Notes under the pieces: generated by a model
Databases searched by the model: none
Told to the model about the DNA's origin: nothing
The model's input: only the letters and a program-made list of their open reading frames with translations
From: Kiritimatiellia bacterium
Lineage (GTDB): Bacteria; Verrucomicrobiota; Kiritimatiellia; RFP12; UBA1067
Assembly (NCBI GenBank): GCA_045636065.1
Contig: JAZTWW010000049.1
Span: 5,168 to 69,167, forward strand
Reading direction: 5' to 3'
Length of the DNA: 64,000 bases
Translations under genes and position numbers: made by a program
Shown here: positions 24,124 to 57,929 of the stretch, piece after piece
Position numbering within the stretch: position 1 is the stretch's first letter
How the letters are laid out: each line of letters starts with the position of its first letter

Positions 24124-24149
24124 TTTTTATCCTCCTGAAGTTTTGAAAA

Positions 24150-37891: not shown

Positions 37892-37968
<77 letters not shown>

Positions 37969-37983
37969 ATCTGGTGTCTTCAA

Positions 37984-38060
37984 TGGCGCGCCCAGCAGGA
38001 GTCGGACCTGCAACCCTCAGATTCGTAGTCTGATACTCTATCCAGTTGAGCTATGGGCGC
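37984..38060 (-). tRNA. tRNA-Arg (anticodon ACG)
   Basis: Reverse complement GCGCCCATAGCTCAACTGGATAGAGTATCAGACTACGAATCTGAGGGTTGCAGGTCCGACTCCTGCTGGGCGCGCCA. Anticodon loop CTACGAA. CCA encoded. Confidence 0.9.
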
Positions 38061-40384: not shown

Positions 40385-41174
40385 CCTTTCCCCCTCCCTT
40401 TCCGTAGAACACCTTCCAGAGGAAGAGCCCCCTGCCAGTCGCCGTAGGGACACGCGCCGTCCTCGGGGGATGTTTTTCAAGAAGTTCGGTGACCGCCTCG
40501 GGCTTTTCGTCCCCGAGGCCCACCCTTACAAGGAAACCGACCATGGACCTCACCTGCTTGTAGAGGAAGCCGTCCCCCCTGACGATGAAAGTTATCCTTG
40601 GGCCGCTCTTCCTCACCTCGAACGAGCGTATCGTCCTCACTGTCGAGGCGATCGGCCTTCCTGGAAGGGCCGCGAACGAAACCATGTCGTGCGTGCCGAC
40701 GAAACGCCCGGCCGCATCGCGCATCGCGCCTACATCGAGCGGCCTATGGTGCCAGCCCCAGAACGGCGCAAGATGCGGCGGCAGGATGGGGGCGTTGTAG
40801 AGGAAGTACCTGTACTCCTTGCCTTTGGCCTCGTACTGCGGGTTGAAGTCAGCGCGCGCGCGGGACACCTTCATTATCCTGACCGACAGGGGAAGCCTTG
40901 TGTTCATCCCGCGCCTTAGACCGTCCAACGGGATCCTGCACGGAAGGTCGAAAGCGACGACCATCCCTTTCGCATGGACGCCCGCATCTGTCCTGCTGCA
41001 GCCGTTGACCCTTACTGGCGCCATCTCCTTGCCGAGGTTGCGAAGAGCCGGACCTGCAATCTCGCCCAGGACGCGCTCAAGCTCGCCCTGCACGGTGACG
41101 CCATTCTGCTGGAGCTGGTATCCGCTGAAGTTCGTGCCGTCGAACGCGACGACGGCCCTGTACCTGAATGCCAC
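40377..41174 (-). CDS. truA: tRNA pseudouridine(38-40) synthase
   Basis: GTG start (complement 41172-41174) overlapping the upstream TAG stop. VAFRYRAVVAFDGTNFSGYQ.Q......VQG.LE..L and catalytic-Asp context RTDAGVHA. Confidence 0.85.
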   Translation of the reverse strand: MAFRYRAVVAFDGTNFSGYQLQQNGVTVQGELERVLGEIAGPALRNLGKEMAPVRVNGCSRTDAGVHAKGMVVAFDLPCRIPLDGLRRGMNTRLPLSVRIMKVSRARADFNPQYEAKGKEYRYFLYNAPILPPHLAPFWGWHHRPLDVGAMRDAAGRFVGTHDMVSFAALPGRPIASTVRTIRSFEVRKSGPRITFIVRGDGFLYKQVRSMVGFLVRVGLGDEKPEAVTELLEKHPPRTARVPTATGRGLFLWKVFYGKGGGKDA

Positions 41175-42226
41175 TACCTGCTCTCCATCTTGGCGAGAAG
41201 CTTCTTCATGTCCTCGACGCGGCTCTTGGCGGCGACTAGAATCCCTTGCGCCGTGGAAACGACCACGACATCCTTTAGCCCCATCGCCGCGATCTTCGGC
41301 CCGCCGCTCTCTATTGCGACGATCCCCTCGCAATCGAGCTCCGTGGCCTCGCCCTTCATGACATTCCCGTTCTCATCCGAAGGAAGGTGCTTCCCGGCCG
41401 CTGCCCACGTGCCGACATCGTCCCAGCCGAAATCGCCGGCTCCGACGATTATCCCGCCAAAGCGCTCCATCACGGCATAGTCGATCGAAATCCGCCTCAA
41501 GGCCGGATATTCCCTTTCAAGCGCTTCGTCAATATCCTCGCACGATTCGAGAAGGGATTCGAGCCTTGCGAGCGGCGGCTCGAGCTTCAAGGCCTCCTTC
41601 ATCGTCGATACGCGCCAGACGAACATGCCGGCGTTCCAGACGTATCCGCCGTTTTCAAGGTAGAGCGCGGCCTTTTCCGCGTTGGGCTTCTCGACGAACC
41701 TTTTCGCCTTCCTGAATATGGTCGACGTCCCGAGATCGAGGACTTCCCCGGCCTCGATGTACCCGAAACCGGTGGCCGGATACGTGGGTTTCACCCCCAT
41801 CGTGACGATGGAATCAGTCCTCGAAGCGGCAATGGCCGAATCGGAAAGGACCTCTCTAAAGGCGGGAACGTCCTTCATCAGCTGATCTGCGGTAAGTATC
41901 GCGACAACGGCCCCGTCGCCGCCGCGCCTTGCGGCCATTGCGCATGCCACCGCGACGGCCGCACCGGTATCGCGCCTCATTGGCTCGCCAGCGATGTTGC
42001 CCTCGGGCAATTCGGGAAGCTCCGATCTCGTAGCCTCCACGAGCGCCGCCGCCGTCACTACGATTATGCGCTGAGGCGGAACGAGCCCGGAAAGCCTGTC
42101 CACCGCCTGTCTTATGAGCGAGCGGCCGCCAAAGACGTCAAGGAACTGCTTCGGGCGCTCTGGGGTGGAAAGAGGCCAGAACCTCTCGCCGCTTCCGCCC
42201 GCTAGAATGGCTGCATAGAAATCCAT
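41174..42226 (-). CDS. manC: Mannose-1-phosphate guanylyltransferase (GDP-mannose pyrophosphorylase, no PMI domain)
   Basis: Start at MDFYAAILAGGSGERFWPLS (ATG complement 42224-42226). GxGxRxxPxS nucleotidyltransferase motif, FVEKP, GYVWNAGMFVW. Confidence 0.8.
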   Translation of the reverse strand: MDFYAAILAGGSGERFWPLSTPERPKQFLDVFGGRSLIRQAVDRLSGLVPPQRIIVVTAAALVEATRSELPELPEGNIAGEPMRRDTGAAVAVACAMAARRGGDGAVVAILTADQLMKDVPAFREVLSDSAIAASRTDSIVTMGVKPTYPATGFGYIEAGEVLDLGTSTIFRKAKRFVEKPNAEKAALYLENGGYVWNAGMFVWRVSTMKEALKLEPPLARLESLLESCEDIDEALEREYPALRRISIDYAVMERFGGIIVGAGDFGWDDVGTWAAAGKHLPSDENGNVMKGEATELDCEGIVAIESGGPKIAAMGLKDVVVVSTAQGILVAAKSRVEDMKKLLAKMESR

Positions 42227-42248
42227 TTCACATCCCTTCCGGGGCGCA

Positions 42249-45200
42249 TCACTCAAACTGGTGGTAGAAGAGGACCCTTGTTCTGTGCGGTACGCGATTG
42301 AGGCCCGAGCCTGGCGTAGTGCCTGGCGGCGGAAGAGGATCGCGCCAGACGAGCGCCACCGCCCTCGCCCCGAGCTGGCTCGGCGTCGCCGATTCGCCAG
42401 CGCCTCCGAGCGCCGCCGACTCCGCTCTCAGGAACACAAGGAAGAGCTGCTGCCTGTTGCCGAAGCAGTTGCGCCAGAAGCTGTAGAGATACTTGCGGTC
42501 GGCGCCGGTGATCGTGCAGCTTTTAAGGGGGACTCCCAGAAGCTCGTTCTCGCCGTCGCTATCAAACGCCTCGGCCCACATGTCGTCGTATACCTCGGTC
42601 CAGTCGCCAGACGATCCGGACTTGAACTTCTCGCGCATCTTCTGGCATATCTTCACGATCTCGTCCCTTGTGATCTTTGAGGACGTGCCATTGTCATTGA
42701 AAGCGCAGTTCCAGCCTTCGGAAAGCTTCATTTCCGATTCGGTGAGCATGTTGGTGCAGGCCGCCCACCAGTCGTAGGGCGTGTTGGCGACGGCCGCCGC
42801 CATGATGAGATCCGAATCGGTGTACGGATTCACCTTCGCGCCGCCGCCATCGTCGTCGGCTACGCCCCTGTCGAAGAGCTCGTCGGACGTCGCTGAACCG
42901 GAATCGAAGAGGCGGTAGCTCTTCCAGGCGAACTTGTGGTGGGCCGTCTGGGTGTAGGCCGTACGGCTTTCAAGCGTGCCGGTGACGCTCGAATACGTGT
43001 TGAAGCTTCCCGATTCGCCGCCCGTTATGACGCGGGGAAGGAACGCAAGCTCGCCCATCGACTGGAGCCATTCGCTGTCGCTCGTGTTCATGAACACGTC
43101 CGTGTCGCGCCCGTCCTGGCCGAGGAAATTGTCATAGCTCGCGAAAAGCGACTGTTTCGAGATCGTGCCGTTCGGGGAAAGGGTGTACCAGTCCTCGGGG
43201 GCCCAGTTGTAGCGCGGATCGCAGCAGGCGAGACCGAGCCTCAAGTCCTTCGTCTTAGCGCGGACGACCTCGATCTTGTCTTCACCCGAGCCGGCGCCCG
43301 TGATCTTCGACTTGTACTCCGCGCTCCACTTGGACATGTCGTACGCGAGAAGCCCCTCCTGCCCTTCTGCGGAGATGTTGAAGTCCATAAGCGGCGCGCC
43401 GCTTCCGGTCTTGTCGGTATTGTCGAGGCACCACGTGCTCTCCTGCCCGAGGTACGTCTTGTCGTCAAGCGCGCCTGCGGGGACGAGATCCACCGTATTG
43501 TTGCTCGAATCCGTCACGCGAAGCCAGATGGCAAGATGAACCGAATACTCCTTCGTGGCCGGGGTGAGATCGTTCTCGCCGTCCTTAGTGAATGGCCAGA
43601 ACGTCGTGTTGCCGTTGTCGATCGCGAAGTCCGTCCTGTTCCATGTGCCGCCGCCGCCCGGGTTGGACTTGTACTCGGCGTTGTACTTCACCCCGATCGC
43701 GTTGTCGAGAGTAAGCGCAAAAGAAAGGTTCACCTTCTGCGTGGCGCGAAGCGTATCCTCGCCGGACTCGGGATCGACGGGGATGGATATGTTCTGCGCC
43801 GTTCCGGCTAGCGTCACGGCACCCCTATCCTTCACCGAAGAGGCCGATGCGCTCTTTCCGAGGTTCCAGTAGCCCTTGTCGGCGACGCGCAGCTTGCTCT
43901 GGTCGCTCTGCCTCAGTGTGACGTCCTTGGGGGCGAGGTAGAGCCTTGCCATCGGCTGGATCCTGAACGTTGCGTTGCCGCCGTGGTCGTGCTTGAACGG
44001 GAAGATCACGAACGGCTCGATCTCGGCGTTTATGTTGTTGATGACGATCGAACCTTTGGACCTTACGCTTCTGAAGGTCTGCGCGCCCTGCGGCAGGGGA
44101 AGCTCGAGCTGGCCGTTCTTGAGGTCGTTCTCTATCTCGATCGAGACGGCGCCCTGCTCGACGTCTATGTTGAGGCCGGCCACCATGGGAATCCTCTCGA
44201 CGCTCGGTATCGCAAGCGAAAGCGGGATGTAGTCCTCGTCGAGGTAGTCGTAGAGAAGGCCCCATCCCATTTCGGGGATGAACTGGAAGTTGCCGTCGTT
44301 CAAAGCGTCGAAGAAGTCCTTCTGGATGTTGCTGTAGCTCAAGAGCTCATCCCTGAAGACGGTCATCGAGTACCTCTTGAACGGCTGGTACTTTCCGGAT
44401 TCGTCGTTGAGGTTCGGCCTTTCTCCGCTGGAGGAGCTTGAAGACTGCTTTGACCCGGATGCGGTCGATGCCGTATTCGTCCCCGGGAACCAGCTGTCGG
44501 TGACGAAGAGCTGGTTCGCGACGGTGTTCGTTCCGCCCACGCGCCCGTAGAAGCTTGCCGCCGGGCTTGAGCCGCTTGCAAGCGCCCAGAAAGGCGAGAG
44601 CATCCCCTTGTCGTTCCCCTCGAGCGCGAGATGGACGTCAAGAAGGCTCGTATAGGGGACATCCCCCTCCGAGACGGGATTCTCGACGAAATCGGCGAGC
44701 TTCTCAGCGCGGGTCTCGGCATCCGTTCCGGCGAACGAGGAAGTCGAGGTGCTGAAAAGGTGCGCGTACGATATCCGCCCTTCGGGGGCGCTTGAGCGCC
44801 TTGCGTCCGGGACGCCTCTATTGATGTCGAAGAAATCGCTGACGTTCAAGGCTACGTAGGCATACCTGCCCGCATCGTAGTTGAAGTCCTTCCACTTGGC
44901 GGACCACGTTCTGCGGCTCAGGAAGCGCGCGTCGTTGACGAGCGGCGCAGGGATGTACCCGAGAGCCTCGAGCGTCAGGACGCTCACCGTATCCTCGATG
45001 CCGGCGATGCGGCCCGTGGTGCCCGAGCCATCCTTCACCCTTGCGGGATCCGGCGGGAAGAAGACGCGTGCGCGCCAATAGTCGTAATGTCCGGTGAAGG
45101 CGGTGTCTGTCGAAAGAGCCGTATCGACCTCTGCTGAGCCGCCAGACGAGGACGACGACTGCGACGAACCCGATGAGAGGGAGTCGTTTACCGTGGGGCT

Positions 45201-45452
45201 TGCGCCCGAGCCGGACTTGACGACGCCCGGATACGGGTCATCCTGTATGGCGTAGTCGAGCTCGGATATGACCTCGGCGAGCGCGGCCTTGGCGAGATGC
45301 CTTGAACCGACGGCGCGCTTCAAGGCGGAGCTCGGCATGCGCTCGGAGCGCATCCAGAGCGAGAACGCCACGGCGCTCACGACCATGAAGCTCAGAAACC
45401 CGAGCACTATAAGAAGCGCGCTTCCGCGCCTGTCCTTAAAGCAGTCTGACAT
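42249..45452 (-). CDS. Giant (1067 aa) GspK-like pseudopilin-domain protein (minor pseudopilin N-terminus fused to a large extracellular region)
   Basis: Start at MSDCFKDRRGSALLIVLGFLSFMVVSAVAFS (ATG complement 45450-45452, ATGA overlap with the upstream pseudopilin stop). GspK-type leader (Gly at -1, no Glu+5). Large Ser/Gly/Asp-rich body. The ORF-track N-terminal extension is overlap junk. Confidence 0.6.
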   Translation of the reverse strand: MSDCFKDRRGSALLIVLGFLSFMVVSAVAFSLWMRSERMPSSALKRAVGSRHLAKAALAEVISELDYAIQDDPYPGVVKSGSGASPTVNDSLSSGSSQSSSSSGGSAEVDTALSTDTAFTGHYDYWRARVFFPPDPARVKDGSGTTGRIAGIEDTVSVLTLEALGYIPAPLVNDARFLSRRTWSAKWKDFNYDAGRYAYVALNVSDFFDINRGVPDARRSSAPEGRISYAHLFSTSTSSFAGTDAETRAEKLADFVENPVSEGDVPYTSLLDVHLALEGNDKGMLSPFWALASGSSPAASFYGRVGGTNTVANQLFVTDSWFPGTNTASTASGSKQSSSSSSGERPNLNDESGKYQPFKRYSMTVFRDELLSYSNIQKDFFDALNDGNFQFIPEMGWGLLYDYLDEDYIPLSLAIPSVERIPMVAGLNIDVEQGAVSIEIENDLKNGQLELPLPQGAQTFRSVRSKGSIVINNINAEIEPFVIFPFKHDHGGNATFRIQPMARLYLAPKDVTLRQSDQSKLRVADKGYWNLGKSASASSVKDRGAVTLAGTAQNISIPVDPESGEDTLRATQKVNLSFALTLDNAIGVKYNAEYKSNPGGGGTWNRTDFAIDNGNTTFWPFTKDGENDLTPATKEYSVHLAIWLRVTDSSNNTVDLVPAGALDDKTYLGQESTWCLDNTDKTGSGAPLMDFNISAEGQEGLLAYDMSKWSAEYKSKITGAGSGEDKIEVVRAKTKDLRLGLACCDPRYNWAPEDWYTLSPNGTISKQSLFASYDNFLGQDGRDTDVFMNTSDSEWLQSMGELAFLPRVITGGESGSFNTYSSVTGTLESRTAYTQTAHHKFAWKSYRLFDSGSATSDELFDRGVADDDGGGAKVNPYTDSDLIMAAAVANTPYDWWAACTNMLTESEMKLSEGWNCAFNDNGTSSKITRDEIVKICQKMREKFKSGSSGDWTEVYDDMWAEAFDSDGENELLGVPLKSCTITGADRKYLYSFWRNCFGNRQQLFLVFLRAESAALGGAGESATPSQLGARAVALVWRDPLPPPGTTPGSGLNRVPHRTRVLFYHQFE

Positions 45453-45940
45453 CAGTCGGCCTCCCCCGCACGGCGGCGCCAGAAGTTGGGCACGGCTACG
45501 CCGGTCGTTTTGGTTGCGTTGAGCATGGCGTTGTCGGCGACATCCATCGTCCCCTGGCGCACCGTCACCATGTAGGGCTTGCCCCATGGATCGACGATGT
45601 GCTCGCCCTTGAACGTGGCGTTGTAGAGGACGGGGATCTTGTTTCCGCTTGCATCCGTCTCGCCGCCTCCGGTGATGAAGCCGAGGTTCGATCTGGTGGC
45701 GTCCTGCCAGCTCTCCATCACATGGCCCGAGAGGTCGTGCGTGGACGCGTAGTTCTCGTACATCAGTATCGCGTGCGTCATTTCGCGCGCGGCGACCGTG
45801 GCCGCCGTGACCTTCGCCCTTTCGCGGGCTCCGGAGACGCTTGAGGTGATGGCCCCTGCGAGAATCATGATCATCCCGAGAACGACCATAAGCTCAATGA
45901 GGGTGAATCCCCTCTTCCCGATAAGGTCTTTTCTCGTCAT
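45452..45940 (-). CDS. Prepilin-type N-terminal cleavage/methylation domain protein, GspG-like major pseudopilin
   Basis: Start MTRKDLIGKRGFTLIELMVVLGMIMILAG. G-FTLIEL prepilin peptidase site with Glu+5. C-terminal DPWGKPY matches the GspG DPWG.PY motif. Confidence 0.75.
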   Translation of the reverse strand: MTRKDLIGKRGFTLIELMVVLGMIMILAGAITSSVSGARERAKVTAATVAAREMTHAILMYENYASTHDLSGHVMESWQDATRSNLGFITGGGETDASGNKIPVLYNATFKGEHIVDPWGKPYMVTVRQGTMDVADNAMLNATKTTGVAVPNFWRRRAGEAD

Positions 45941-46422
45941 TGCTTCTTCTCCGGGAGTGTTGTTATGTCGTCGCTCGTGTCCCAGAGGCCGTCCGGGCCG
46001 GCTGATTTGACGCCAACCTTGTATGTGGACGCGCCGCCGCCGGACGACGCCGAGCCGGTGACGGAGACGTTGGCCGCGGCAGGGTGCGTCCAGACGTTCG
46101 CCGGAAGCGTTATCGGCTTCTCGTCCGAAAGGTTGCCGACGGATCTCTTCCTCAAAGTCGAGGAGGTGGGGCTCCACGCGCCTGTCACGTAGTAGCCGGT
46201 GGCCGTCTCCTGCCCGTCGCGCTTGAGCCTGGGCAGGGCGTTCTCGGCCTGGTGCTGGAGCTTGGACATCCCGATGCGCCTCGAATCGAGGTCTGCAACG
46301 GAAGCCTTGCCCGTGCGCCATGCCATGGAGCTTGAGTTGAAGACCATCGTGAGAATCGTGATGAGGATTCCCATCAGGAGGCTCGCGACGAGCATCTCTA
46401 TAAGAGTGAAACCCTTCTTCAT
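45937..46422 (-). CDS. Prepilin-type N-terminal cleavage/methylation domain protein (pseudopilin)
   Basis: Start MKKGFTLIEMLVASLLMGILITIL (ATG complement 46420-46422). ATGA overlap with the downstream gene. Confidence 0.75.
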   Translation of the reverse strand: MKKGFTLIEMLVASLLMGILITILTMVFNSSSMAWRTGKASVADLDSRRIGMSKLQHQAENALPRLKRDGQETATGYYVTGAWSPTSSTLRKRSVGNLSDEKPITLPANVWTHPAAANVSVTGSASSGGGASTYKVGVKSAGPDGLWDTSDDITTLPEKKQ

Positions 46423-47024
46423 TTCGCAGGATCCCCCTGGAAGCGGACTTCCGTATAGTATACCGGCGCAGCCAGAAGCTGCCCTGGACGATTGACTACG
46501 CGCATGCAAAGAAGTATGCGCTGGAGATCAGGCTCCTTCGCGTGGGTCGAGGGGTTGTATCTCGTACCGTAGCTCGCAACGAGCGCGTACCTGAGGCCGT
46601 CCTTCTCTCCTGGTGCCGAGAAGGAGTCGTACTCGCTTGAGCCGGATGTGCATTTCGAATACAGATCCTGAGCCACGTCGCTCGCGAGGTTGGTCATGTT
46701 GCGCTTGGGGCGCTCGAAGCGGTCCGGAAGGTCGAAATACGCGCGCCATCCGCCTGCCGGATTGGAATAGGCGTCGCTTGCGGACGTGGAGCAGAGCTCC
46801 TTCCATACGCTCCAGGCGACGTTCGTCGAGGAGAGGGCCGCCGCCACCGGATTGAGGACGCTGTCGGCGAGCGCGGCGCCGGCCACGTCCTCGATCGACT
46901 GCTCGTTCTCGCGGAATCCGAGCGGATAGAGCGCCACCATCGTGAGGATGCCTCCCGCCATGATGAACACGGCGAGGTTCACCTCCATCAGCGTAAATGC
47001 GCTTTTCAAACGTGAAAATGACAT
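46419..47024 (-). CDS. Pseudopilin-like protein with atypical leader
   Basis: MSFSRLKSAFTLMEVNLAVFIMAGGILTMVALY. Pilin-like hydrophobic helix with Glu, but Ser rather than Gly at -1. ATGA overlap with the downstream gene. Confidence 0.55.
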   Translation of the reverse strand: MSFSRLKSAFTLMEVNLAVFIMAGGILTMVALYPLGFRENEQSIEDVAGAALADSVLNPVAAALSSTNVAWSVWKELCSTSASDAYSNPAGGWRAYFDLPDRFERPKRNMTNLASDVAQDLYSKCTSGSSEYDSFSAPGEKDGLRYALVASYGTRYNPSTHAKEPDLQRILLCMRVVNRPGQLLAAPVYYTEVRFQGDPAK

Positions 47025-47036
47025 TTCTTGGCCTCG

Positions 47037-47810
47037 CTAGTTGCTGTTGTTTTCGCTGTCGGCTTCGCTCGTCCTGCCGACCGTGCGGACCTGCCCGCCG
47101 GATGTGAGCGCCGAGATCGTCCTTGCCTGAGGCGTTGAATCGTCTCCGGGAAGGAAAAAGAGGTCTGACTCGCCCTTTACCTCCTTGCCAGGCTCCGTGG
47201 GGGCGCTTGAGCCGAAGAAGTAGCCGTTCGGGAGCGTGGTGGTGGCGATCTCGAAGGCGTATGCGTCGCCCGTCTTCCAGCTTGCGCCGCCTTTGTCGAT
47301 AAAGCCGAACTGCTCATCCTCGACAGTTGCGCCAAGCCCGATCATCTCCTCGGTGACGCCTGTGGGGACCTCCTCGACGTATGTGCTCACCTTCCCCGGG
47401 GTGACGCCGTTCGAGTCGAACTTGTAGAGGCGCATCGTCGATGTCGAGCCGGAGACGGCGTTCGTGGGGTAGCTCCGCCCGAGATCCGCAAACTCGTCGA
47501 AGAGATGCCCGTCGGAGACGCGGGAGAATCTCCCGGCCATCCTGATCGCGACGGCCCTCGCCTGGATCACGTCGGCGGAATCGTCGCCTCCATTGCGGAG
47601 CTTCATGTTGTAGAATATGACGGCCGTGGGCATGTGGTCCGCCGTGGCGCGCTGCTGCGCAACGCGTATGAGGCTTCTCACGTCCGTCAAGGCGCCCCTG
47701 TCGGCCATGCCCCTTGAGGCGGCGAAGTAGCCCGAGACGGCAACCGTGGAGAGCATCCCCATGATGCCCACGGTGACGAGAAGCTCTACGAGTGTGAAGC
47801 CCTTTTTCAT
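47037..47810 (-). CDS. Prepilin-type N-terminal cleavage/methylation domain protein (pseudopilin, 257 aa)
   Basis: Start MKKGFTLVELLVTVGIMGMLSTVAV (ATG complement 47808-47810). Confidence 0.75.
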   Translation of the reverse strand: MKKGFTLVELLVTVGIMGMLSTVAVSGYFAASRGMADRGALTDVRSLIRVAQQRATADHMPTAVIFYNMKLRNGGDDSADVIQARAVAIRMAGRFSRVSDGHLFDEFADLGRSYPTNAVSGSTSTMRLYKFDSNGVTPGKVSTYVEEVPTGVTEEMIGLGATVEDEQFGFIDKGGASWKTGDAYAFEIATTTLPNGYFFGSSAPTEPGKEVKGESDLFFLPGDDSTPQARTISALTSGGQVRTVGRTSEADSENNSN

Positions 47811-48391
47811 TTCTTGACGCTCACCTTGTCGGTATCGTAGTTGTAGACGATCGTGAAGCGGCGGAACCGCCCCTCCTCCTTGCCGGCGTAGCCAAAGCAC
47901 ATCTCATCGATCCCCATGGGCTGGTTGTGGTCGCCGCCCCTGTAGGCCGTGTCGAAGTCCATGCCGTAGGAGCAGTTCCTGTTCCCGCAGTAGTCGGACT
48001 TGGACTTGTCGGTGTGGTTGTCGTTGCAGGCCTTGGCGCCCTTGCGCGCGACGACGAGCACGGAGGGCTCCACGAGCTGGCTGCCGCCCGAGTCCTCTAC
48101 GCTCATCTTTACGATCTCGCGGAAGACGGGATCGGCCTCCTCGCCGGTAAGCTCCATCGTGGAGCCGGAGGAGGTGTTGGAGTCGGCTGCGGATTCGATC
48201 GCCGCCGGCCACTTGCCCTTCTGCGTGTGGTACATCTGGATCGCGTTCTCGAGGGCGACGCGGATCGCCTCGCCCTTCGTTTCGCGGGCGGACTTGATGG
48301 CACCGCTTGCCGCAAAGGTGACGATCGTCATGAGGATTGAAAGAATGCCCACCACAATCATCAATTCGACTATCGTAAATCCCTTTTTCAT
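47807..48391 (-). CDS. Prepilin-type N-terminal cleavage/methylation domain protein (pseudopilin, 194 aa)
   Basis: Start MKKGFTIVELMIVVGILSILMTIV (ATG complement 48389-48391). ATGA overlap with the downstream gene. Confidence 0.75.
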   Translation of the reverse strand: MKKGFTIVELMIVVGILSILMTIVTFAASGAIKSARETKGEAIRVALENAIQMYHTQKGKWPAAIESAADSNTSSGSTMELTGEEADPVFREIVKMSVEDSGGSQLVEPSVLVVARKGAKACNDNHTDKSKSDYCGNRNCSYGMDFDTAYRGGDHNQPMGIDEMCFGYAGKEEGRFRRFTIVYNYDTDKVSVKK

Positions 48392-48468
48392 CTTCTTCTC
48401 CCTCTTAAGAATGCTTTCCAGGGTATCCACCCCGCCGCGCCTGCCTGTTCACTACAACCTGAAACCTG

Positions 48469-49101
48469 TTACTTGACAACCTGTCCTGCCTGCCAGCTGT
48501 AGACGTCGTCGCACCTGCCGACCTCCGTCCACGGCTGCACGACGCCGTCCTTGCCGCAGCTCCATACGCACACCTTAGCGCGCACCTTCACGCTGCCGAT
48601 CCCTTCGGCGTTGATCTCCACGATACCGTCGTCGTCATCGTCGATCGCGTACCAGAGGATGTGGTCCTTGACTGTGCCGCCAGCGGGATCCGCCTTCATG
48701 GAAGAATCGGAGGAGCCGCTTTTCGTGCTGCGCTTTTTAAGGGCGTTCTCTCCCCAGTGGTCGACTATGCCGCAGCGGTCGCTGCCCGTCAAGGTGATGG
48801 TGCCGTTCTCATAGTCGTTCTTGTCGTAGGCTAGCGACATGAGGTTGTGCTTTACGAAAGGCCTGCAGGCCTTCTCGTCGAGCTGGCCGTTGTTGTTCTC
48901 CTGGAGGGACTTGGGCCACATGCCGCCGGCCTTCTGGAGGACGATGTTGAGCGCCGTCGCCGTTTCGCTCACGAGGTTCTGCACCTTCGCCGTCTCGGCC
49001 GAATCCTTCGCCCCTCCCATGCTTACCGCAAAGACGCCCATAAGGACGGCGAGAATGCCGATTACGACCATAAGTTCAATGAGCGTGAAACCTTTTTTCA
49101 T
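48469..49101 (-). CDS. Prepilin-type N-terminal cleavage/methylation domain protein (pseudopilin, 210 aa)
   Basis: MKKGFTLIELMVVIGILAVLMGVFAV. C-terminal Cys pairs (CVWSCGKDG...GRCDD). Confidence 0.8.
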   Translation of the reverse strand: MKKGFTLIELMVVIGILAVLMGVFAVSMGGAKDSAETAKVQNLVSETATALNIVLQKAGGMWPKSLQENNNGQLDEKACRPFVKHNLMSLAYDKNDYENGTITLTGSDRCGIVDHWGENALKKRSTKSGSSDSSMKADPAGGTVKDHILWYAIDDDDDGIVEINAEGIGSVKVRAKVCVWSCGKDGVVQPWTEVGRCDDVYSWQAGQVVK

Positions 49102-49118
49102 TTCATTCCCCTTTCAAA

Positions 49119-50243
49119 TCAGTTCGAGAGATGCTTTACGTCGTCCGCAATCCACTTGAGGGCGACCTCCTTTTCGGACGGAGTGAGAGTATCCAGGTCG
49201 ATCCACGGAGGGAACGTCTTTCCGTCGGGGCCGGAGCTCCAGATTATGTAGCTCTGGTACGGCGGCGGAGAGTAGTAGTAGAAGTCGTTGCCCCATCCGT
49301 CGTGTACCGTCACCACCTTGAGGACGTACGGATTCGCGTGCCCGCCCGAGGAGTACACGTCAGGATACGGCTGGGGATAGAGCGACGCCTCGCCGCTTGA
49401 GGTGTTGACGCCGTAGAACTTGCCGCCGCCGCATACGATCCCCTCCAGGTTCGGCATCCACCTTGCGGTGACGCGCTGGCTGGGCTGGTTCGATATGACG
49501 TAGGACTGCGATCCCTTGCCGCTGTCGCCCCAGAGCTGCATGACCTCGCTCCACGAGTAGTCGTCGCCGTTGTCGAGGCTCTTGAGCTTGCGGTTGTTGG
49601 CCGTCCACTGCGCGAAGCCGCCCTCGTAGAAGTCCTGGTCCGCGTTCATCATGAAGAGATAGCGCGGCAGAAGGAACGACATGAGCCCGAACTGGAACAT
49701 CTGGACCTTGCGCCAGTCCGACTCGCCCTTGAGCGCGCCGAACTGCCCGGCGTTCTCGCATCCGTCGAAGTTGTAGATCGTGGGATCCGCATCGAGGGCC
49801 TTGCTGTAGTCTTCGTACTTGTCGCTTCCGCTCTGGGCGCGCTTCTTGCACGTTTCCGCAACCGCCTTCACGAACGAGGATTCGCTCTGAGGATACGGGA
49901 ACTGCGCCGCCAGGGGCTGCGCACGGCAGGCGAGCCTTACGCGCCTCCAGCAATCGGAGTTGTCGGTTATGGGCGAGTTGTCGATGTCGTCAAGGCTCTG
50001 CACGCCGAACGTCTCGGGCTTGAGCGAAATGTCCTGCACGCCGTGGAGCGGCACGGGAGGATAGCTCCCGTACGCCGCGTAGTAGCCCGAAAGGGCGTTC
50101 TCGATCTTCTGCATCCTGAGAACGGTCTTGTTCTTCTTCGTCGCGTCGTCGCCGACGCCGGCGAGGCGGAAGGTCATCGACATCAACGTGACGATGACCG
50201 CAACCGTTATCAGAAGCTCAAGGAGTGTAAATCCCTTTTTCAC
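49119..50243 (-). CDS. Prepilin-type N-terminal cleavage/methylation domain protein (large pseudopilin, 374 aa)
   Basis: MKKGFTLLELLITVAVIVTLMSMTF. C-terminal WSSGPDGK resembles the GspG-family S.GPDG motif. Confidence 0.8.
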   Translation of the reverse strand: MKKGFTLLELLITVAVIVTLMSMTFRLAGVGDDATKKNKTVLRMQKIENALSGYYAAYGSYPPVPLHGVQDISLKPETFGVQSLDDIDNSPITDNSDCWRRVRLACRAQPLAAQFPYPQSESSFVKAVAETCKKRAQSGSDKYEDYSKALDADPTIYNFDGCENAGQFGALKGESDWRKVQMFQFGLMSFLLPRYLFMMNADQDFYEGGFAQWTANNRKLKSLDNGDDYSWSEVMQLWGDSGKGSQSYVISNQPSQRVTARWMPNLEGIVCGGGKFYGVNTSSGEASLYPQPYPDVYSSGGHANPYVLKVVTVHDGWGNDFYYYSPPPYQSYIIWSSGPDGKTFPPWIDLDTLTPSEKEVALKWIADDVKHLSN

Positions 50244-50272
50244 CTTGTCGTCTCCTCAAATGCACGCCCTCA

Positions 50273-51580
50273 TCAGCCGCCCGCTCCGGAGACGTTGCTG
50301 ATGATCTTGACCATAGGCATGAACATGGCGATGACGATCGTGCCGACGACTGCGGCGAGGAAGATGATGAGCGCAGGCTCGATGGCGGCGGTAAGGCCGC
50401 TCACGGCGTTGTCGACCTCGTCGTCGTACGTGTTGGCGACGCGGGTGAGCATGTCCGCCAGCGCGCCCGTCTCCTCACCGACCTGCACCATCGAAACGAC
50501 CATGGGCGGGAAGACGCCGCACGCGGCGAGGGGATCGGTCATCGACTCGCCTTCCTTGACGGCGTCGTGGACGCTCTGGATGGCGTTGCGGATGACGAGG
50601 TTTCCGGTCGTGTCGCGCACGATGGAGAGAGCCTGGAGGATCGGAACGCCCGATCCGAGAAGCGTACCCAGAGTGCGCGTCACCTGCGAGACGGCAGAGC
50701 GCTGCACGAGCGTACCCGTAACGGGCATCTTAAGGCGCATATGGTCCAGCATCAGCGCGCCCTTCTTCGTCTTTCCTATCATCTTGTAGAGGACCACGAA
50801 GGCGACGAAGCCGATCGCGATCTGCCCGCCGTTGTGCTGGACGAATTCGGATGCGTCCATGACGAACTGCGTCACAGGCGGCAGCTCCTCTCCGCCGAGG
50901 ATGTCGTTGAACACCTGCTGGAACTTCGGGATGACCGTCACGAGCAGGAAGGCCGTGATGCCGACCGCGGCCGTCAGAACGACCATCGGGTAGATCATCG
51001 CGCCCTTGACCTTGTTCTTGATCTTCTCGGCCTTTTCGGCGAACTCGGCAAGCCTTGCGAGAACGACTTCGAGAACGCCGCCCGCCTCGCCGGCCTTGAC
51101 CATGTTCACGTAGAGGTTGTTGAAGATCTTGGGATAGCCTGTCAGGGCCTCGGAGAACGTGCCGCCTCCCGAGATCGACTCGCTTATGCCCTCAAGGCAG
51201 TCCTGCAGGGCCGGCACGCGGTTCTGCTTCTTGACGACCTCGATGCATCGCATGAGAGGAAGGCCTGCGTTGACGAGCGTCGCAAGCTGGCGCGTGAAGG
51301 CCGTAAGGTCCTTCGTCTTCACCTTGCCGCGCATGAAGCTCGGAAGCTTGATGTTGAAGTTGAGGCCGCCCTTCTTCTTGCCGCCGCCAGCCGGGGCGGG
51401 TGCGCCGCCCTTCTTCTTCGCGGGGGCAGGCTGCGATGAGCCTTTGACCTCACCTATGGCCGTGGGCATCAACCCGCCGGCGCGGATTGCGGCTATCGCC
51501 TGGGAGCGGTCCGCCGCATCGATCGTTCCGCGCTGCTCCTGACCGGCGCTGTCGCGCGCGATGTACTGAAATTTAGCCAT
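50273..51580 (-). CDS. gspF: Type II secretion / type IV pilus platform protein F (GspF/PilC family)
   Basis: Start MAKFQYIARDSAGQEQRGTIDA. Two T2SSF domains (LATLVNAGLPLMRCIEVV...; TRTLGTLLGSGVPILQALSIV...), three TM helices. Low-complexity KKKGGAPAPAGGGKKKGG insert. Confidence 0.9.
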   Translation of the reverse strand: MAKFQYIARDSAGQEQRGTIDAADRSQAIAAIRAGGLMPTAIGEVKGSSQPAPAKKKGGAPAPAGGGKKKGGLNFNIKLPSFMRGKVKTKDLTAFTRQLATLVNAGLPLMRCIEVVKKQNRVPALQDCLEGISESISGGGTFSEALTGYPKIFNNLYVNMVKAGEAGGVLEVVLARLAEFAEKAEKIKNKVKGAMIYPMVVLTAAVGITAFLLVTVIPKFQQVFNDILGGEELPPVTQFVMDASEFVQHNGGQIAIGFVAFVVLYKMIGKTKKGALMLDHMRLKMPVTGTLVQRSAVSQVTRTLGTLLGSGVPILQALSIVRDTTGNLVIRNAIQSVHDAVKEGESMTDPLAACGVFPPMVVSMVQVGEETGALADMLTRVANTYDDEVDNAVSGLTAAIEPALIIFLAAVVGTIVIAMFMPMVKIISNVSGAGG

Positions 51581-51646
51581 TATGCTCGCCTCGTCTTGTG
51601 GCCGCACACCCTCTAATGGACGCTCGGCCGGATTCTGATGTTCAAA

Positions 51647-51652
51647 TTATAC
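51647..51652 (-). promoter_or_regulatory. Candidate -10 (TATAAT on minus strand) upstream of gspF
   Basis: Minus strand reads ggTATAATttgaac, about 67 nt upstream of the gspF ATG. Weak, motif-only evidence. Confidence 0.25.
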
Positions 51653-51671
51653 CGCAAACCGACCCGCCTTG

Positions 51672-52847
51672 TCAATACGCAAGGACTTTCGCCAGCGCGG
51701 CGACGGATGCGCGCGTCTCGGCGGAAAGCGCTCCCTTGAGCGTCACGACAGGCTCCGCGAAGGTGATCTCCTTGGACTTCTCGAACATCCCCTTGATGAT
51801 TCTCGCCGCCTGCGGCGCCCACGATCCGTTCTCCACTATCGCGACGGTGCGCTTCTGGTAGAGGCGCTCGACGAGCGCGAGGACGAACTCCTCCATCTTC
51901 GGGAAGACGCCCGCGTTGTACGTGGTGGTGGCGAGAACGAGCTTCCCGTAGCGGAACGCATCCTCAACCGCCTCGTGGAAATCCTCGCGCGCGAGATCGG
52001 CCATCGACACCTTCGGGCAGCCCGCCTTGACGAGCTCGTCCTTCAAAAGCTCCGCGGCCTCCTTCGTGTGGCCGTAGACGCTCGTGTAGGCGATGAAGAC
52101 GCCTTCCGTCTCGACTCCGTACGACGACCACACGCCGTACTTCGCGAGCGCGTTTGCGAGGTCCCCGCCTTTGAGGACGTATCCGTGCAGAGGGCAGACA
52201 GTCTCGATTGCGAGCGCCGCGGCCTTCTTGAGAACGGCCTGCACCTGCATGCCGTACTTGCCGACGATGCCAAAGTAGTACCTGCGCGCCTCGCAGTCCC
52301 ATCCCTCGTCGTCCTCGACGTCGTTAGCGCCGAACTTGCCGAACCCGTCGGCGGAGAAGAGCGTGCGGCTCTTGGCGTCGTAGGTCATCACCACCTCGGG
52401 CCAGTGCACCATCGGGGCGGCGATGAACGAGAGGACGCGCCCTGCTCCAAGGTCGAGCGTCTTCCCTTCGCCAACGACAACGCGCCTCCCGGCGAAATCG
52501 GTGCCGAAGAACTGCGCCATCATCTTGAACGCCTGGACGCTCGAGACGATCTGCGCGTTGGGGTACGCCTGGGCGAACGCGGCGATGCCAGAGGAGTGGT
52601 CGGGCTCCATGTGCTGGACGATAAGGTAGTCCGGCTCGACGGACGCGGCCTTGATGTTATCGAGCCACACATCGGCGAAGCGGCCGTCCACCGCGTCCAT
52701 CACCGCAGTCTTCTCGCCCCTTATAAGGTAGCTGTTGTACGCCATACCGTTGGGAACGGCGAACTGCCCTTCAAAGAGATCGATCTTGTGATCGTTGACT
52801 CCGACGTACTCGATGCCCTCTGCAACCGTCATGTCGTAGAAATTCAT
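51672..52847 (-). CDS. fprA: Flavodiiron protein (FprA family A-type flavoprotein; O2/NO reductase)
   Basis: 391 aa. Metallo-beta-lactamase-like diiron site H.EPDH (VQHMEPDHSSG). C-terminal flavodoxin-like domain (LVLATTTYNAG). Confidence 0.85.
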   Translation of the reverse strand: MNFYDMTVAEGIEYVGVNDHKIDLFEGQFAVPNGMAYNSYLIRGEKTAVMDAVDGRFADVWLDNIKAASVEPDYLIVQHMEPDHSSGIAAFAQAYPNAQIVSSVQAFKMMAQFFGTDFAGRRVVVGEGKTLDLGAGRVLSFIAAPMVHWPEVVMTYDAKSRTLFSADGFGKFGANDVEDDEGWDCEARRYYFGIVGKYGMQVQAVLKKAAALAIETVCPLHGYVLKGGDLANALAKYGVWSSYGVETEGVFIAYTSVYGHTKEAAELLKDELVKAGCPKVSMADLAREDFHEAVEDAFRYGKLVLATTTYNAGVFPKMEEFVLALVERLYQKRTVAIVENGSWAPQAARIIKGMFEKSKEITFAEPVVTLKGALSAETRASVAALAKVLAY

Positions 52848-54471: not shown

Positions 54472-54900
54472 CTATTTCTGCTTTGTTGCCTGGATGCGTC
54501 CCTGCGCATCGCGGTACGTCGTCTTCCCGTAGCTGTCGGTGGTGGAAGTCCCCGTTATGCGGCCCATGGCGTCGCGGTATGTGGTCTTCCCGTAGCTGTC
54601 GGTGGTGGAAGTCCCCGTTATGCGGCCCATGGCATCACGGTATGTGGTCTTCCCGTAGGAGTCGGTTGTGGCAGTTCCCTGCTGGCGGCCCATCGCGTCG
54701 CGGTACGTGGTCTTTCCGCGGGAGTCGGTGTCGGCGGTTCCCTGCTTGCGGCCCATTGCGTCGCGGTACGTGGTCTTCCCGCGGGAGTCCGTGTCGGCAG
54801 TCCCCTTCTGGCGGCCCATCGCATCGCGGTAGACCTCCTTCGAACCTGCAAACGAGACCGCCGACATGGCGGCAAGCGCAACAACGAGGATGTTATTCAT
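54472..54900 (-). CDS. Small secreted protein made of 21-aa tandem repeats (YRDAMGRxxGTxxTDSxGKTT x5 plus a partial copy)
   Basis: Start at MNNILVVALAAMSAVSFAGS (ATG complement 54898-54900; AAGGAG RBS). The ORF-track 5' extension is unsupported. Protein is almost entirely repeats. Confidence 0.6.
   Translation of the reverse strand: MNNILVVALAAMSAVSFAGSKEVYRDAMGRQKGTADTDSRGKTTYRDAMGRKQGTADTDSRGKTTYRDAMGRQQGTATTDSYGKTTYRDAMGRITGTSTTDSYGKTTYRDAMGRITGTSTTDSYGKTTYRDAQGRIQATKQK
54507..54880. repeat. 63-bp tandem repeat, about 5.9 copies (coding repeats of the small secreted protein)
   Basis: Repeat-initiating cat(g/c)gcg recurs at 54565, 54628, 54691, 54754, 54817 (exact 63-bp spacing). Units are about 85-95% identical. 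Confidence 0.85.
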
Positions 54901-54927
54901 GCCACACTCCTTTCTTACAGGCTTGAT

Positions 54928-54936
54928 ATTATACCA
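54928..54936 (-). promoter_or_regulatory. Putative extended -10 (TGGTATAAT on minus strand) for the repeat-protein gene
   Basis: Minus strand reads ggggTGGTATAATatcaagcc, 28 nt upstream of the ATG. Confidence 0.4.
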
Positions 54937-57923: not shown

Positions 57924-57929
57924 GCTGAT

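What the first reader, a model, noticed from the sequence alone, without database searches (positions are those of the whole stretch)
42249..51580. Pseudopilin super-cassette: GspF, seven prepilin-type proteins and a 1067-aa GspK-like giant, without secretin or ATPase
Nine consecutive minus-strand genes look like an operon. They encode a GspF/PilC platform protein, seven proteins with prepilin leaders (six MKKGFTLIELMVV-type plus one atypical), and a 1067-aa protein whose N-terminus is a GspK-type pseudopilin helix (Gly at -1, no Glu+5). The rest of that giant protein is a Ser/Gly/Asp-rich extracellular region. Several junctions are ATGA or 4-nt overlaps, implying translational coupling. No GspD secretin, GspE/PilB ATPase, prepilin peptidase or GspC/L/M lies anywhere in the 64 kb. 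Canonical T2SS has five pseudopilins and T4P minor-pilin operons encode a separate non-pilin PilY1; here the tip-like giant is itself a pseudopilin fusion. The architecture recalls the Verru_Chthon cassette A-D gene sets described for Verrucomicrobium/Chthoniobacter (family names recalled from TIGRFAMs; exact accessions not asserted), but with more members and a GspF. The coupled genes continue downstream into manC-truA-rsmI-KS-DH.
Basis: partly seen in the sequence, partly recalled or inferred. Interest (0 to 1): 0.75.

Follow-up and report, generated by a model that had tools for sequence, protein, structure and literature searches.

The report
Kiritimatiellia pilin operon with giant GspK
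This is a conserved nine-gene operon of gut and rumen Kiritimatiellia that encodes the membrane platform and all the filament subunits of a type II secretion / type IV pilus-like machine, including a tip subunit three times the normal size. It is a lineage-specific variant of a known machine, not a new kind of system.

Summary
Nine same-strand genes at 42249-51580 encode a GspF/PilC platform, seven prepilins and a 1067-aa protein, with three ATGA overlaps and one 1-nt overlap. No secretin, ATPase or peptidase lies in the 64 kb.

The block is not an orphan. Gene order is invariant in all 89 related loci held, mostly Kiritimatiellia MAGs and gut/rumen metagenome contigs. The giant's family has about 1250 cluster representatives, the best 150 all about 1000-1200 aa.

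Relatives encode a secretin in a separate cluster with a GspL-like PilM protein and Amuc_1100/Amuc_1102-like proteins. This matches the Akkermansia Amuc_1098-1102 pili-like cluster. In one MAG only coaE and rho separate that secretin from gspF.

The Verru_Chthon hits are N-terminal only and fall below cut-off, so membership is not supported. The manC-truA neighbours are lineage-specific.

Verdict: this is the platform-and-filament operon of a dispersed, T2SS-like type IV filament machine. It is a new variant of a known kind, of moderate interest.

The parts
51646..51675 (-). Sigma-70-type promoter upstream of gspF: TTGACA, 18-nt spacer, TATAAT (12 of 12 positions match).
   Evidence: A perfect TATAAT lies 24-71 nt upstream of the gspF ATG in 28 of 31 related loci. 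No terminator-like site was found on the minus strand in 41000-52000.
50273..51580 (-). gspF/pilC, the inner-membrane platform protein (435 aa). It has a Lys/Gly/Ala/Pro-rich linker at about residues 45-85.
   Evidence: Pfam T2SSF 4e-64 in two stretches. TIGR02120 GspF scores 392 bits against a cut-off of 424, and the PilC models score about the same. It is 30% identical to E. coli GspF at 1.5e-57. Median identity among relatives is 72.6%.
49119..50243 (-). P1, a GspG-like (pseudo)pilin of 374 aa with an inserted helical domain of about 200 residues. Leader (V/M)KKG|FTLLE. Candidate major subunit.
48469..49101 (-). P2, a prepilin of 210 aa (MKKG|FTLIE). GspG/GspH-like N-terminus, with DHWG and CGKDG motifs.
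   Evidence: N_methyl 1.4e-7. The TIGR01710 and TIGR01708 hits are N-terminal only and below cut-off. Orthologues are 1:1 in all loci.
47807..48391 (-). P3, a prepilin of 194 aa (MKKG|FTIVE). GspG/ComGC-like N-terminus.
   Evidence: E. coli GspG gives its best window hit here, at 2.7e-7.
47037..47810 (-). P4, a prepilin of 257 aa (MKKG|FTLVE). GspH/ComGD-like N-terminus. Its start overlaps the P3 stop codon (ATGA).
46419..47024 (-). P5, an atypical prepilin of 201 aa (KSA|FTLMEVNLA). GspI/PilV-like 'EV' signature.
   Evidence: Weak N-terminal hits to TIGR02598 (7.8e-5) and TIGR02523 PilV (1e-3). hhalign against GspI aligns 24 columns at 34% probability. Orthologues mostly have G|FTLMEV.
45937..46422 (-). 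P6, a prepilin of 161 aa (MKKG|FTLIEMLVAS). GspJ/PilW-like N-terminus and a GspG-like C-terminal S-x-GPDG...DDI motif. Its start overlaps the P5 stop codon (ATGA).
   Evidence: hhalign against E. coli GspJ gives 92% probability over 35 columns. The GspJ N-terminus hits P6 in 26 loci. PDB chain 29jd_A (GspG) matches residues 131-152 weakly.
45452..45940 (-). P7, a prepilin of 162 aa (leader MTRKDLIGKRG|FTLIE). GspG-like with a DPWGKPY motif. Its start overlaps the P6 stop codon (ATGA).
   Evidence: TIGR01710 GspG 8e-10, below cut-off. E. coli GspG aligns over up to 142 residues with P7 orthologues.
42249..45452 (-). K, a giant GspK-type minor pseudopilin of 1067 aa. Parts: leader RRG|SALLIV (no Glu+5); alpha1 helix 11-69; Ser-rich linker 81-120; conserved pilin/GspK core (126-230 and 1001-1067); a more variable middle region with beta-sandwich domains (about 421-760).

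Best explanation
The block is the platform-and-filament operon of a dispersed type IV filament machine that is conserved across Kiritimatiellia. By its pilin content it is of the type II secretion (T2SS) kind.

Transcription and translation. Transcription most likely starts at a consensus sigma-70 promoter just upstream of gspF. The nine genes are translated as a coupled unit.

Processing (inferred). A prepilin peptidase encoded elsewhere would cleave the leaders after Gly/Ala-1.

Assembly (inferred by analogy with GspK-GspI-GspJ). K has a GspK fold and no Glu+5. It would sit at the very tip and nucleate assembly together with P5 (GspI-like) and P6 (GspJ-like). P4 (GspH-like) would link this cap to a shaft built from GspG-like subunits: P1 and possibly P2, P3 and P7.

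Rest of the machine.
- Polymerisation on GspF would be driven by an ATPase encoded elsewhere (not found here).
- The filament would work through a secretin. In relatives this secretin lies in a separate cluster with a GspL-like PilM protein and Amuc_1100/Amuc_1102-like proteins (shown in relatives, not in this window).

Role of the extra residues (inferred). About 750 residues of K, including poorly conserved beta-sandwich domains, would be displayed at the tip. There they would contact cargo or ligand.

The general statement (filament module of a type IV filament machine with a giant GspK-type tip subunit) is about 0.9 likely. The T2SS-type assignment, as opposed to a surface pilus, is about 0.55 likely.
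For: Gene identity:
- T2SSF, N_methyl and T2SSG hits.
- K has GspK as its two best structural matches out of 48,164 PDB chains, and 7 of 40 relatives give weak T2SS_GspK hits.
- P6 matches GspJ and P5 matches GspI/PilV in the N-terminal helix.
- The order F, G-like, H-like, I-like, J-like, K mirrors the gspF-K part of the E. coli operon.

Conservation:
- Gene order is invariant and orthologues are 1:1 in all 89 loci held.
- gspF is 68-95% identical among relatives, against 29-60% for K.
- Flanking genes are unrelated between loci.

Transcription unit: a consensus promoter is conserved upstream of gspF. Where gspF is absent, a promoter lies upstream of P1.

Rest of the machine in relatives:
- In L004 the order is secretin, coaE, rho, gspF.
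- Four other loci carry a secretin cluster with a PilM-like protein that has the GspL topology, plus Amuc_1100/1102-like proteins.
- This matches the Akkermansia Amuc_1098-1102 cluster (PMC4960237, PMC5332112).

Published context:
- Kiritimatiella glycovorans is reported to have a T2SS and no TonB-dependent uptake (PMC5148204).
- Among type IV filament tip subunits, a large inserted domain is typical of T2SS GspK and is absent from P. aeruginosa PilX (PMC7248040).
Against: - No ATPase, prepilin peptidase or secretin could be tied to this particular genome. Only 64 kb was available.
- Similarity of P2-P7 to named pseudopilins is confined to the N-terminal helix, and all equivalog cut-offs are missed.
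- GspF scores equally well against PilC and GspF models.
- The homologous Akkermansia cluster is described in the literature as type IV pili-like, and pili-like filaments were seen there.
- Eight pilin-like genes, plus a ninth after K in many relatives, exceed the five of a canonical T2SS.
- A 115-kDa tip is about the size of PilY1, which is displayed on surface pili.
Confidence: 0.55

Rival explanations
1. The genes are the same, but the machine is a surface-exposed type IV pilus rather than a periplasmic T2SS pseudopilus. K would be a tip adhesin, functionally a PilX plus PilY1 in one polypeptide. Its variable beta-sandwich modules would bind glycans, mucus or plant and algal polymers. They would serve attachment, or retraction-driven capture of polysaccharide.
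For: - The secretin cluster of relatives is homologous to the Akkermansia Amuc_1098-1102 'type IV pili-like' cluster and carries a PilM_2 domain protein (PMC4960237, PMC5332112).
- K is about 115 kDa, similar in size to PilY1.
- The middle of K is the least conserved part, as expected for an exposed ligand-binding module.
- Its beta-sandwich domains resemble the accessory sandwich domains of GH2 enzymes, C2 domains and a Wzt carbohydrate-binding domain.
- Many relatives carry an extra pilin after K, as pilE follows pilY1.
- Modular tip pilins that bind ligands are well documented (PMC8179133).
Against: - K has the GspK-type architecture, which is typical of T2SS.
- P1 passes the Pfam T2SSG threshold.
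- The gene order matches the gsp operon.
- The PilM-like partner has the fused GspL-like topology.
- No PilT-type retraction ATPase and no PilY1 domain was seen in any locus.
- No experimental pili are reported for Kiritimatiellia.
Confidence: 0.33
2. The block is a member of the Verru_Chthon cassette (TIGR02596, 02598, 02599, 02600) described for Verrucomicrobium and Chthoniobacter, enlarged by extra members and a GspF.
For: P2-P7 give weak hits to TIGR02596, TIGR02598 and TIGR02599 (E 4e-5 to 4e-3). The general layout is the same: several prepilin-leader proteins plus one very large protein.
Against: - All hits cover only the N-terminal 40-70 residues.
- Scores are 17-24 bits against cut-offs of 51-256 bits.
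- Neither K nor any of the 39 relatives scanned with it matches TIGR02600 at E <= 0.01, whereas 7 match T2SS_GspK.
- No literature on the cassette could be retrieved.
Confidence: 0.04
3. The block encodes a competence (DNA-uptake) pilus, with K as a ComZ-like DNA-binding tip pilin.
For: P3, P4 and P6 give weak N-terminal hits to ComGC and ComGD models. ComZ sets a precedent for a large domain inserted in a tip pilin (PMC7248040).
Against: - All Com hits are far below cut-off and are confined to the N-terminal helix.
- No ComEA, ComEC or DprA neighbours appear in any locus.
Confidence: 0.05
4. The block is an orphan, non-functional remnant of a secretion system that has lost its ATPase and secretin.
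For: No ATPase, secretin or peptidase was found in 64 kb.
Against: - All nine reading frames are intact.
- Order is invariant and orthologues are 1:1 across 89 loci.
- gspF is 68-95% identical among relatives.
- The promoter is conserved.
- The K family has 1247 cluster representatives, and the best 150 listed are all full length.
- Secretins are present in relatives.
Confidence: 0.02

Closest known systems
The gspF-G-H-I-J-K segment of the canonical type II secretion operon (E. coli K-12 gspC-O, Klebsiella pul, Pseudomonas xcp)
   Same: - The platform gene is followed by a G-like pilin, an H-like pilin, an I-like pilin, a J-like pilin and finally a K-type subunit without Glu+5.
- Adjacent genes overlap.
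- P1 passes the Pfam T2SSG threshold.
- K has the GspK fold.
   Different: - gspC, D, E, L, M and O are not adjacent.
- There are four G-like pilins instead of one, and one of them (P7) sits between the J-like gene and K.
- P1 carries a helical insert of about 200 residues.
- K is 1067 aa against about 330 aa.
- All equivalog HMM cut-offs are missed.
GspK/XcpX, the minor pseudopilin at the pseudopilus tip (PDB 3ci0_K, 5vtm_X)
   Same: - The leader R-G|x-A-L-L-I-V-L is nearly identical to that of E. coli GspK.
- No Glu+5.
- Last gene of the pilin set.
- A pilin module interrupted by a large insertion.
   Different: - K is about three times larger.
- It has extra beta-sandwich domains and Ser-rich linkers.
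- The window protein has no Pfam T2SSK or NF037980 match.
Type IVa pilus minor-pilin operon fimU-pilVWXY1E, with the PilY1 tip adhesin
   Same: - A set of core minor pilins encoded together with a tip protein of about 115 kDa.
- Many relatives have one more pilin after the giant.
- The operon is separate from the ATPase and secretin genes.
   Different: - The giant is itself a pilin, with a class III-type leader and a GspK fold. It is not a non-pilin beta-propeller protein.
- No PilY1 or vWA domain is present.
- A platform gene is included.
Modular pilins: PilB and PilC of Streptococcus sanguinis, CofB, TcpB, ComZ (Raynaud et al. 2021, PMC8179133)
   Same: A pilin module carries bulky extra modules that can only be accommodated at the filament tip.
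   Different: - The modules are inserted within a GspK-type pilin rather than appended after a short linker.
- None of the modules has a database signature.
- At 1067 aa, K exceeds the largest case in that survey (860 aa).
Akkermansia muciniphila Amuc_1098-1102 'type IV pili-like' cluster (Ottman et al. 2016 and 2017)
   Same: Relatives of this organism encode the same cluster: an Amuc_1102-like protein, a PilM/FtsA-like protein, an Amuc_1100-like protein and a secretin. In one MAG the secretin lies about 2.5 kb upstream of gspF. It is therefore probably the outer part of the same machine.
   Different: - That cluster is not in this window.
- It contains no pilins or platform protein.
- Whether Akkermansia has an equivalent pilin-plus-K operon was not testable here.
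Verru_Chthon cassette proteins A-D (TIGR02600, 02598, 02599, 02596)
   Same: Found in the PVC superphylum. Several prepilin-leader proteins are encoded next to one very large protein.
   Different: - Only N-terminal, sub-threshold hits were found.
- The K family does not match protein A.
- This cassette has more genes and includes a GspF.

Membership tests
Type II secretion system (Gsp) | GspF-type polytopic platform protein | tested here: met
   Pfam T2SSF 4e-64 in two stretches. 30% identity to E. coli GspF at 1.5e-57. TIGR02120 scores 392 bits, just under its 424 cut-off, and the PilC models score about the same.
Type II secretion system (Gsp) | GspG-type major pseudopilin | tested here: inconclusive
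   [not shown]
Type II secretion system (Gsp) | Minor pseudopilins GspH, GspI and GspJ | tested here: inconclusive
   P4, P5 and P6 resemble GspH, GspI and GspJ only in the N-terminal helix. All equivalog cut-offs are missed.
Type II secretion system (Gsp) | GspE ATPase encoded with the system | tested here: not met
   No T2SSE domain, no GspE tblastn hit and no GPTGSGK(T/S)T motif was found in the window or in 358 flanking ORFs of the related loci. Presence elsewhere in the genome could not be tested.
Type II secretion system (Gsp) | GspD secretin | tested here: not met
   Absent from the window. Present in relatives: in L004 about 2.5 kb upstream of gspF, and in separate clusters in L091-L094.
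Type II secretion system (Gsp) | GspC/L/M assembly platform and GspO prepilin peptidase | tested here: not met
   No hits in the window or the pilin loci. In the secretin clusters of relatives, a 579-aa PilM_2 protein has a GspL-like topology: an actin-like domain, one TM segment at 369-387 and a periplasmic domain.
GspK family (Pfam T2SSK, NF037980) | Match to the family HMM | tested here: not met
   The window protein has no Pfam or NCBIfam hit at E <= 0.1. 7 of 40 family members hit NF037980 weakly, with best E 3.7e-4. hhalign against E. coli GspK aligns only 24 N-terminal columns.
GspK family (Pfam T2SSK, NF037980) | GspK three-dimensional fold: a pilin module with an inserted domain | tested here: met
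   [not shown]
GspK family (Pfam T2SSK, NF037980) | Prepilin-type leader with Gly at -1 and no Glu at +5 | tested here: met
   The leader is MSDCFKDRRG|SALLIV. G10 is nearly invariant and position +5 is Ile.
Verru_Chthon cassette (TIGR02596, 02598, 02599, 02600) | Scores above the curated cut-offs of the four family models | tested here: not met
   Best scores are 17-24 bits against cut-offs of 51-256 bits, N-terminal only. TIGR02600 is matched by none of the 40 K-family proteins scanned.
Type IVa pilus minor-pilin / PilY1 operon | Non-pilin PilY1 tip protein with a C-terminal beta-propeller | tested here: not met
   K has no PilY1, Neisseria PilC or vWA domain. K is itself a pilin-fold protein.
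Modular pilins (sensu Raynaud et al. 2021) | Pilin module plus at least one extra structural module in the same polypeptide | tested here: met
   The AF2 model shows an N-terminal alpha1 helix, C-terminal pilin strands and beta-rich domains at about 421-760. The IPR012902/N_methyl signature itself is not detected in K.

The most novel reading that the evidence does not exclude
K may be a new class of tip subunit: a GspK pilin that has absorbed the role of a PilY1-like adhesin or cargo receptor. Its fast-evolving beta-sandwich modules would bind polysaccharide or exo-enzymes at the end of a heteropolymeric filament built from several G-like pilins, including P1 with its unmatched helical insert. 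This would give Kiritimatiellia, which lack TonB/Sus-type uptake, a filament-based way to capture glycans or to select cargo for secretion. It would also tie into the Amuc_1100 cluster that is important in Akkermansia-host signalling.
Probability: 0.2. Interest if true: 0.7.

Novelty: new variant of a known kind. Interest (0 to 1): 0.45.

Why it matters
Kiritimatiellia are abundant polysaccharide and mucin degraders in rumen, gut and marine sediments. Reports on the first cultured representative describe exported enzymes and no TonB-dependent uptake, so their type IV filament machine is probably central to how they feed.

This work adds four things:
- It defines a conserved, completely unannotated protein family: about 1250 cluster representatives, no Pfam domain, and where a source gives a name at all it is 'hypothetical protein'. 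The family is a three-fold enlarged GspK.
- It shows that the full pilin set travels as one nine-gene unit.
- It links that unit to the secretin cluster homologous to Akkermansia Amuc_1098-1102.
- It gives concrete targets (K, P1) for testing whether PVC bacteria use such filaments for secretion, adhesion or substrate capture.

It does not reveal a new kind of machine.

Tried and rejected
Searches that gave nothing useful:
- Pfam and NCBIfam on K: no hit.
- hmmsearch of the K, P1, P5 and P6 family profiles against PDB sequences: nothing for K, and only N-terminal helix matches for the others.
- Foldseek of the K model against the PDB: nothing below E 0.07.
- afdb50 fold search: the library was not available.
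- hhalign of the family profiles against single E. coli pseudopilins: only N-terminal helices aligned.
- Literature searches for Kiritimatiellia with pseudopilin, T2SS or type IV pili, and for 'Verru_Chthon': no description of this cassette. One paper only states that a T2SS exists, and its supplement is not held.

Attempts to locate the ATPase and peptidase all came back negative. These were Pfam on 123 flanking ORFs, a Walker-A regex on 358 flanking ORFs, tblastn with E. coli GspE, GspO, GspL, GspM and GspC, and inspection of four secretin-cluster loci.

Ideas considered and rejected:
- That the seven pilins are recent paralogues. They share only the N-terminal helix.
- That manC-truA-rsmI-KS/DH belong to the module. 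They are shared only with the 60%-identical relative.
- That gspF is an obligatory part of the block. Five loci have P1-K without gspF upstream.

Full report
OBSERVATION

ORF listing and start-codon inspection give nine consecutive minus-strand genes that match the reported span exactly:
- gspF 50273-51580
- P1 49119-50243 (GTG start)
- P2 48469-49101
- P3 47807-48391
- P4 47037-47810
- P5 46419-47024
- P6 45937-46422
- P7 45452-45940
- K 42249-45452 (1067 aa)

Three junctions (P3/P4, P5/P6, P6/P7) are ATGA overlaps. P7/K is a 1-nt TGATG overlap. The remaining gaps are 12-77 nt.

Pfam gives T2SSF (4e-64) for gspF and N_methyl above threshold for P1-P4, P6 and P7. It also gives T2SSG above threshold for the C-terminal part of P1. 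P5 has the leader KSA|FTLMEV, and its orthologues mostly have Gly at -1. K begins MSDCFKDRRG|SALLIVLGFLSF, so it has Gly-1 and no Glu+5.

Pfam scans of 30 further ORFs across the window found no secretin, T2SSE/PilB/PilT, peptidase A24 or GspC/L/M. tblastn with all twelve E. coli K-12 Gsp proteins and a Walker-A motif scan agree. The seven prepilin leaders of the cassette are the only ones in the window.

WHAT THE GIANT IS

K has no Pfam, NCBIfam or PDB-sequence match. It does have more than 680 full-length homologues, unnamed or called hypothetical. The few that carry an organism name come from Kiritimatiellae/Kiritimatiellia MAGs.

A profile search of 1.84 billion cluster representatives finds 1247 members at E <= 1e-3 and 468 at E <= 1e-30. 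The best 150 are all 966-1221 aa.

An AlphaFold2 model built on 69 homologues is confident (pLDDT 81.3, pTM 0.80). Its parts are:
- a long N-terminal helix (11-69);
- a disordered Ser-rich linker (81-120);
- mixed alpha/beta regions;
- beta-rich domains at about 421-760;
- helices, and three C-terminal strands.

Two sequence-level results support it. 7 of 40 family members give weak hits to NF037980 T2SS_GspK and to no other NCBIfam family. The leader and first helix align with E. coli GspK at 46% identity over 24 residues.

Conservation is high in the helix (0.80), in residues 126-230 (0.61) and in the C-terminal strands (0.70). It is low in residues 231-760 (0.31-0.39). That pattern fits a conserved pilin/GspK core carrying a fast-evolving exposed module.

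Its 'Ser/Gly/Asp-rich region' is mostly a folded multidomain body.

THE OTHER PILINS

P1-P7 resemble one another only in the N-terminal helix, so they are not recent duplicates.

The evidence for the other pilins is weaker:
- P7, P2 and P3 also look G-like.
- P4 gives GspH/ComGD-type N-terminal hits.
- P5 gives PilV/GspI-type hits.
- P6 aligns with the GspJ helix at 92% probability. The GspJ N-terminus hits P6 in 26 loci.

All of these lie below the equivalog cut-offs, so the one-to-one naming is inference. The resulting order is F, G-like x3, H-like, I-like, J-like, G-like, K. That mirrors gspF-G-H-I-J-K of E. coli.

CONSERVATION AND CONTEXT

Four genome loci, five loci from exact-protein look-ups and 80 metagenome loci were collected.
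- In every one the gene order is invariant and orthologues are 1:1.
- Of the loci with enough upstream sequence, 41 have gspF adjacent and five do not.
- Median identities to the window proteins are 73% for GspF, 35-45% for the pilins and 32% for K.
- Flanking genes differ between loci. Only the closest relative (L008, K 60% identical) shares manC-truA-rsmI-KS/DH. Those genes are neighbours, not part of the module.
- About 28 loci have an additional prepilin of about 300 aa right after K, and some have a 1500-aa protein after that. The window lacks both.

A perfect TTGACA-18-TATAAT promoter lies at 51675-51646. A perfect -10 box sits 24-71 nt upstream of gspF in 28 of 31 loci. In the loci without gspF it sits directly upstream of P1. 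No terminator-like site lies on the coding strand within the block.

WHERE THE REST OF THE MACHINE IS

No ATPase signature occurs in 358 flanking ORFs or among the Pfam families most often matched by 123 flanking ORFs.

The only GspD hit was in L004. There a secretin (PF00263, 1e-35) is followed by coaE, rho and then gspF-P1...K.

Homologues of that secretin are common in Kiritimatiellae. In four loci they sit in a conserved cluster:
- an Amuc_1102-like protein;
- a 536-582-aa PilM_2/FtsA-like protein;
- an Amuc_1100-like protein;
- a protein of about 365 aa;
- the secretin;
- coaE.

The PilM-like protein has one transmembrane segment after the actin-like domain, followed by a C-terminal domain of about 190 aa. 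This is the GspL (PilM+PilN) topology. The next two proteins are bitopic.

This is the Akkermansia Amuc_1098-1102 cluster. [quoted passage not shown]

The cassette is therefore one half of a dispersed machine, not a secretin-less oddity. The ATPase and the prepilin peptidase remain unlocated because only 64 kb of this genome was available.

MECHANISM

Shown: gene identities, the fold of K, coupling, conservation, the promoter, and the existence of the secretin cluster in relatives.

Inferred by analogy with GspK-GspI-GspJ and with the minor-pilin priming model (PMC7248040):
- K, P5 and P6 form the tip/initiation complex on GspF.
- P4 links this complex to a shaft of G-like subunits.
- A GspE/PilB-type ATPase drives assembly through the secretin.
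- The extra modules of K are displayed at the tip.

Arguments for a T2SS-type reading:
- GspK-type architecture with a large insert;
- the T2SSG hit on P1;
- gsp-like gene order;
- the GspL-like partner protein;
- the reported T2SS and lack of TonB-dependent uptake in Kiritimatiella (PMC5148204).

Arguments for a surface-pilus reading:
- the pili-like description in Akkermansia;
- a tip the size of PilY1;
- the extra pilins;
- the variable beta-sandwich module.

I put the first at about 0.55 and the second at about 0.33.

COMPARISON AND NOVELTY

Verru_Chthon membership fails. Hits are N-terminal only, with 17-24 bits against cut-offs of 51-256. No K-family protein matches TIGR02600.

K is best described as a GspK-type modular pilin in the sense of Raynaud et al. 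(PMC8179133). It is larger than the 860-aa extreme in their survey, and signature-based searches cannot see it.

Dispersed gene layouts, extra minor pilins and bulky tip subunits are all known themes. This is a new, lineage-wide variant of a known kind and not a new system. Interest is moderate (0.45). The main value is a defined, unannotated family and a testable link to the Amuc_1100 cluster.

Noticed in passing
window 54472-55038 (-), tandem array 54494-54831: A small predicted secreted protein (188-aa ORF) made of about 5.4 tandem copies of a 63-nt (21-aa) unit, GKTTYRDAMGRxxGTxxTDSx. Copies match at 85%. Function unknown.
   Followed up: partly
window 55552-57965 (-), and on to about 64000: An Eco57I-type methyltransferase and an XhoI-family endonuclease (a restriction-modification pair). 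They lie in a stretch where GC drops from about 0.62 to 0.51-0.55, which suggests a horizontally acquired island. The 1437-aa ORF at 59427-63740 next to it has no Pfam match.
   Followed up: no
window 50273-51580 (-), GspF residues about 45-85: GspF carries a Lys/Gly/Ala/Pro-rich low-complexity linker (GSSQPAPAKKKGGAPAPAGGGKKKGG) between its N-terminal domain and the first T2SSF repeat. This is not a feature of E. coli GspF.
   Followed up: no
L007 12997-18543, L009 12988-18693, and about 28 other loci directly after the K orthologue: Many relatives have a ninth pilin-like gene (about 300 aa, N_methyl) immediately downstream of K. Some then have a 1536-1589-aa protein with no Pfam domain. The window has manC at this position.
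   Followed up: partly
L091 2453-11188, L092 283-7814, L093 2828-10807, L094 3574-11572; L004 58-1395: Kiritimatiellia carry a homologue of the Akkermansia Amuc_1098-1102 cluster: an Amuc_1102-like protein, a GspL-topology PilM-like protein, an Amuc_1100-like protein and a secretin. It is followed by coaE (and by rho in L004 and L092). In L091, L093 and L094 it is preceded by ackA-pta-kpsF. In L004 only coaE and rho separate the secretin from gspF.
   Followed up: partly
L003, L057, L060, L071, L078, upstream of P1: Five loci have the P1-K block without gspF upstream. In each, a perfect TATAAT box lies only 9-10 nt before the estimated P1 start. This hints at a very short or absent 5' leader, or at a mis-set start codon.
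   Followed up: partly
window 4200-13637 (-): Three large adjacent ORFs. One of 1035 aa has He_PIG and InlB B-repeat domains. One of 536 aa has He_PIG. One of 1432 aa has a thioredoxin-like N-terminus. A SurA-like PPIase follows. The 536-aa and 1432-aa ORFs overlap as listed, so the gene starts need checking.
   Followed up: no
window 18083-24839 (-): A polysaccharide export cluster on the same strand, unrelated to the pilin cassette. It has a Wzc-like tyrosine kinase/co-polymerase, a beta-barrel porin-like protein and a Wza-like Poly_export/SLBB protein.
   Followed up: no
window 37892-38060 (-): tRNA-Met(CAT) and tRNA-Arg(ACG) lie directly after the KS/DH gene. They mark the end of the long same-strand gene run that begins at gspF.
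   Followed up: no
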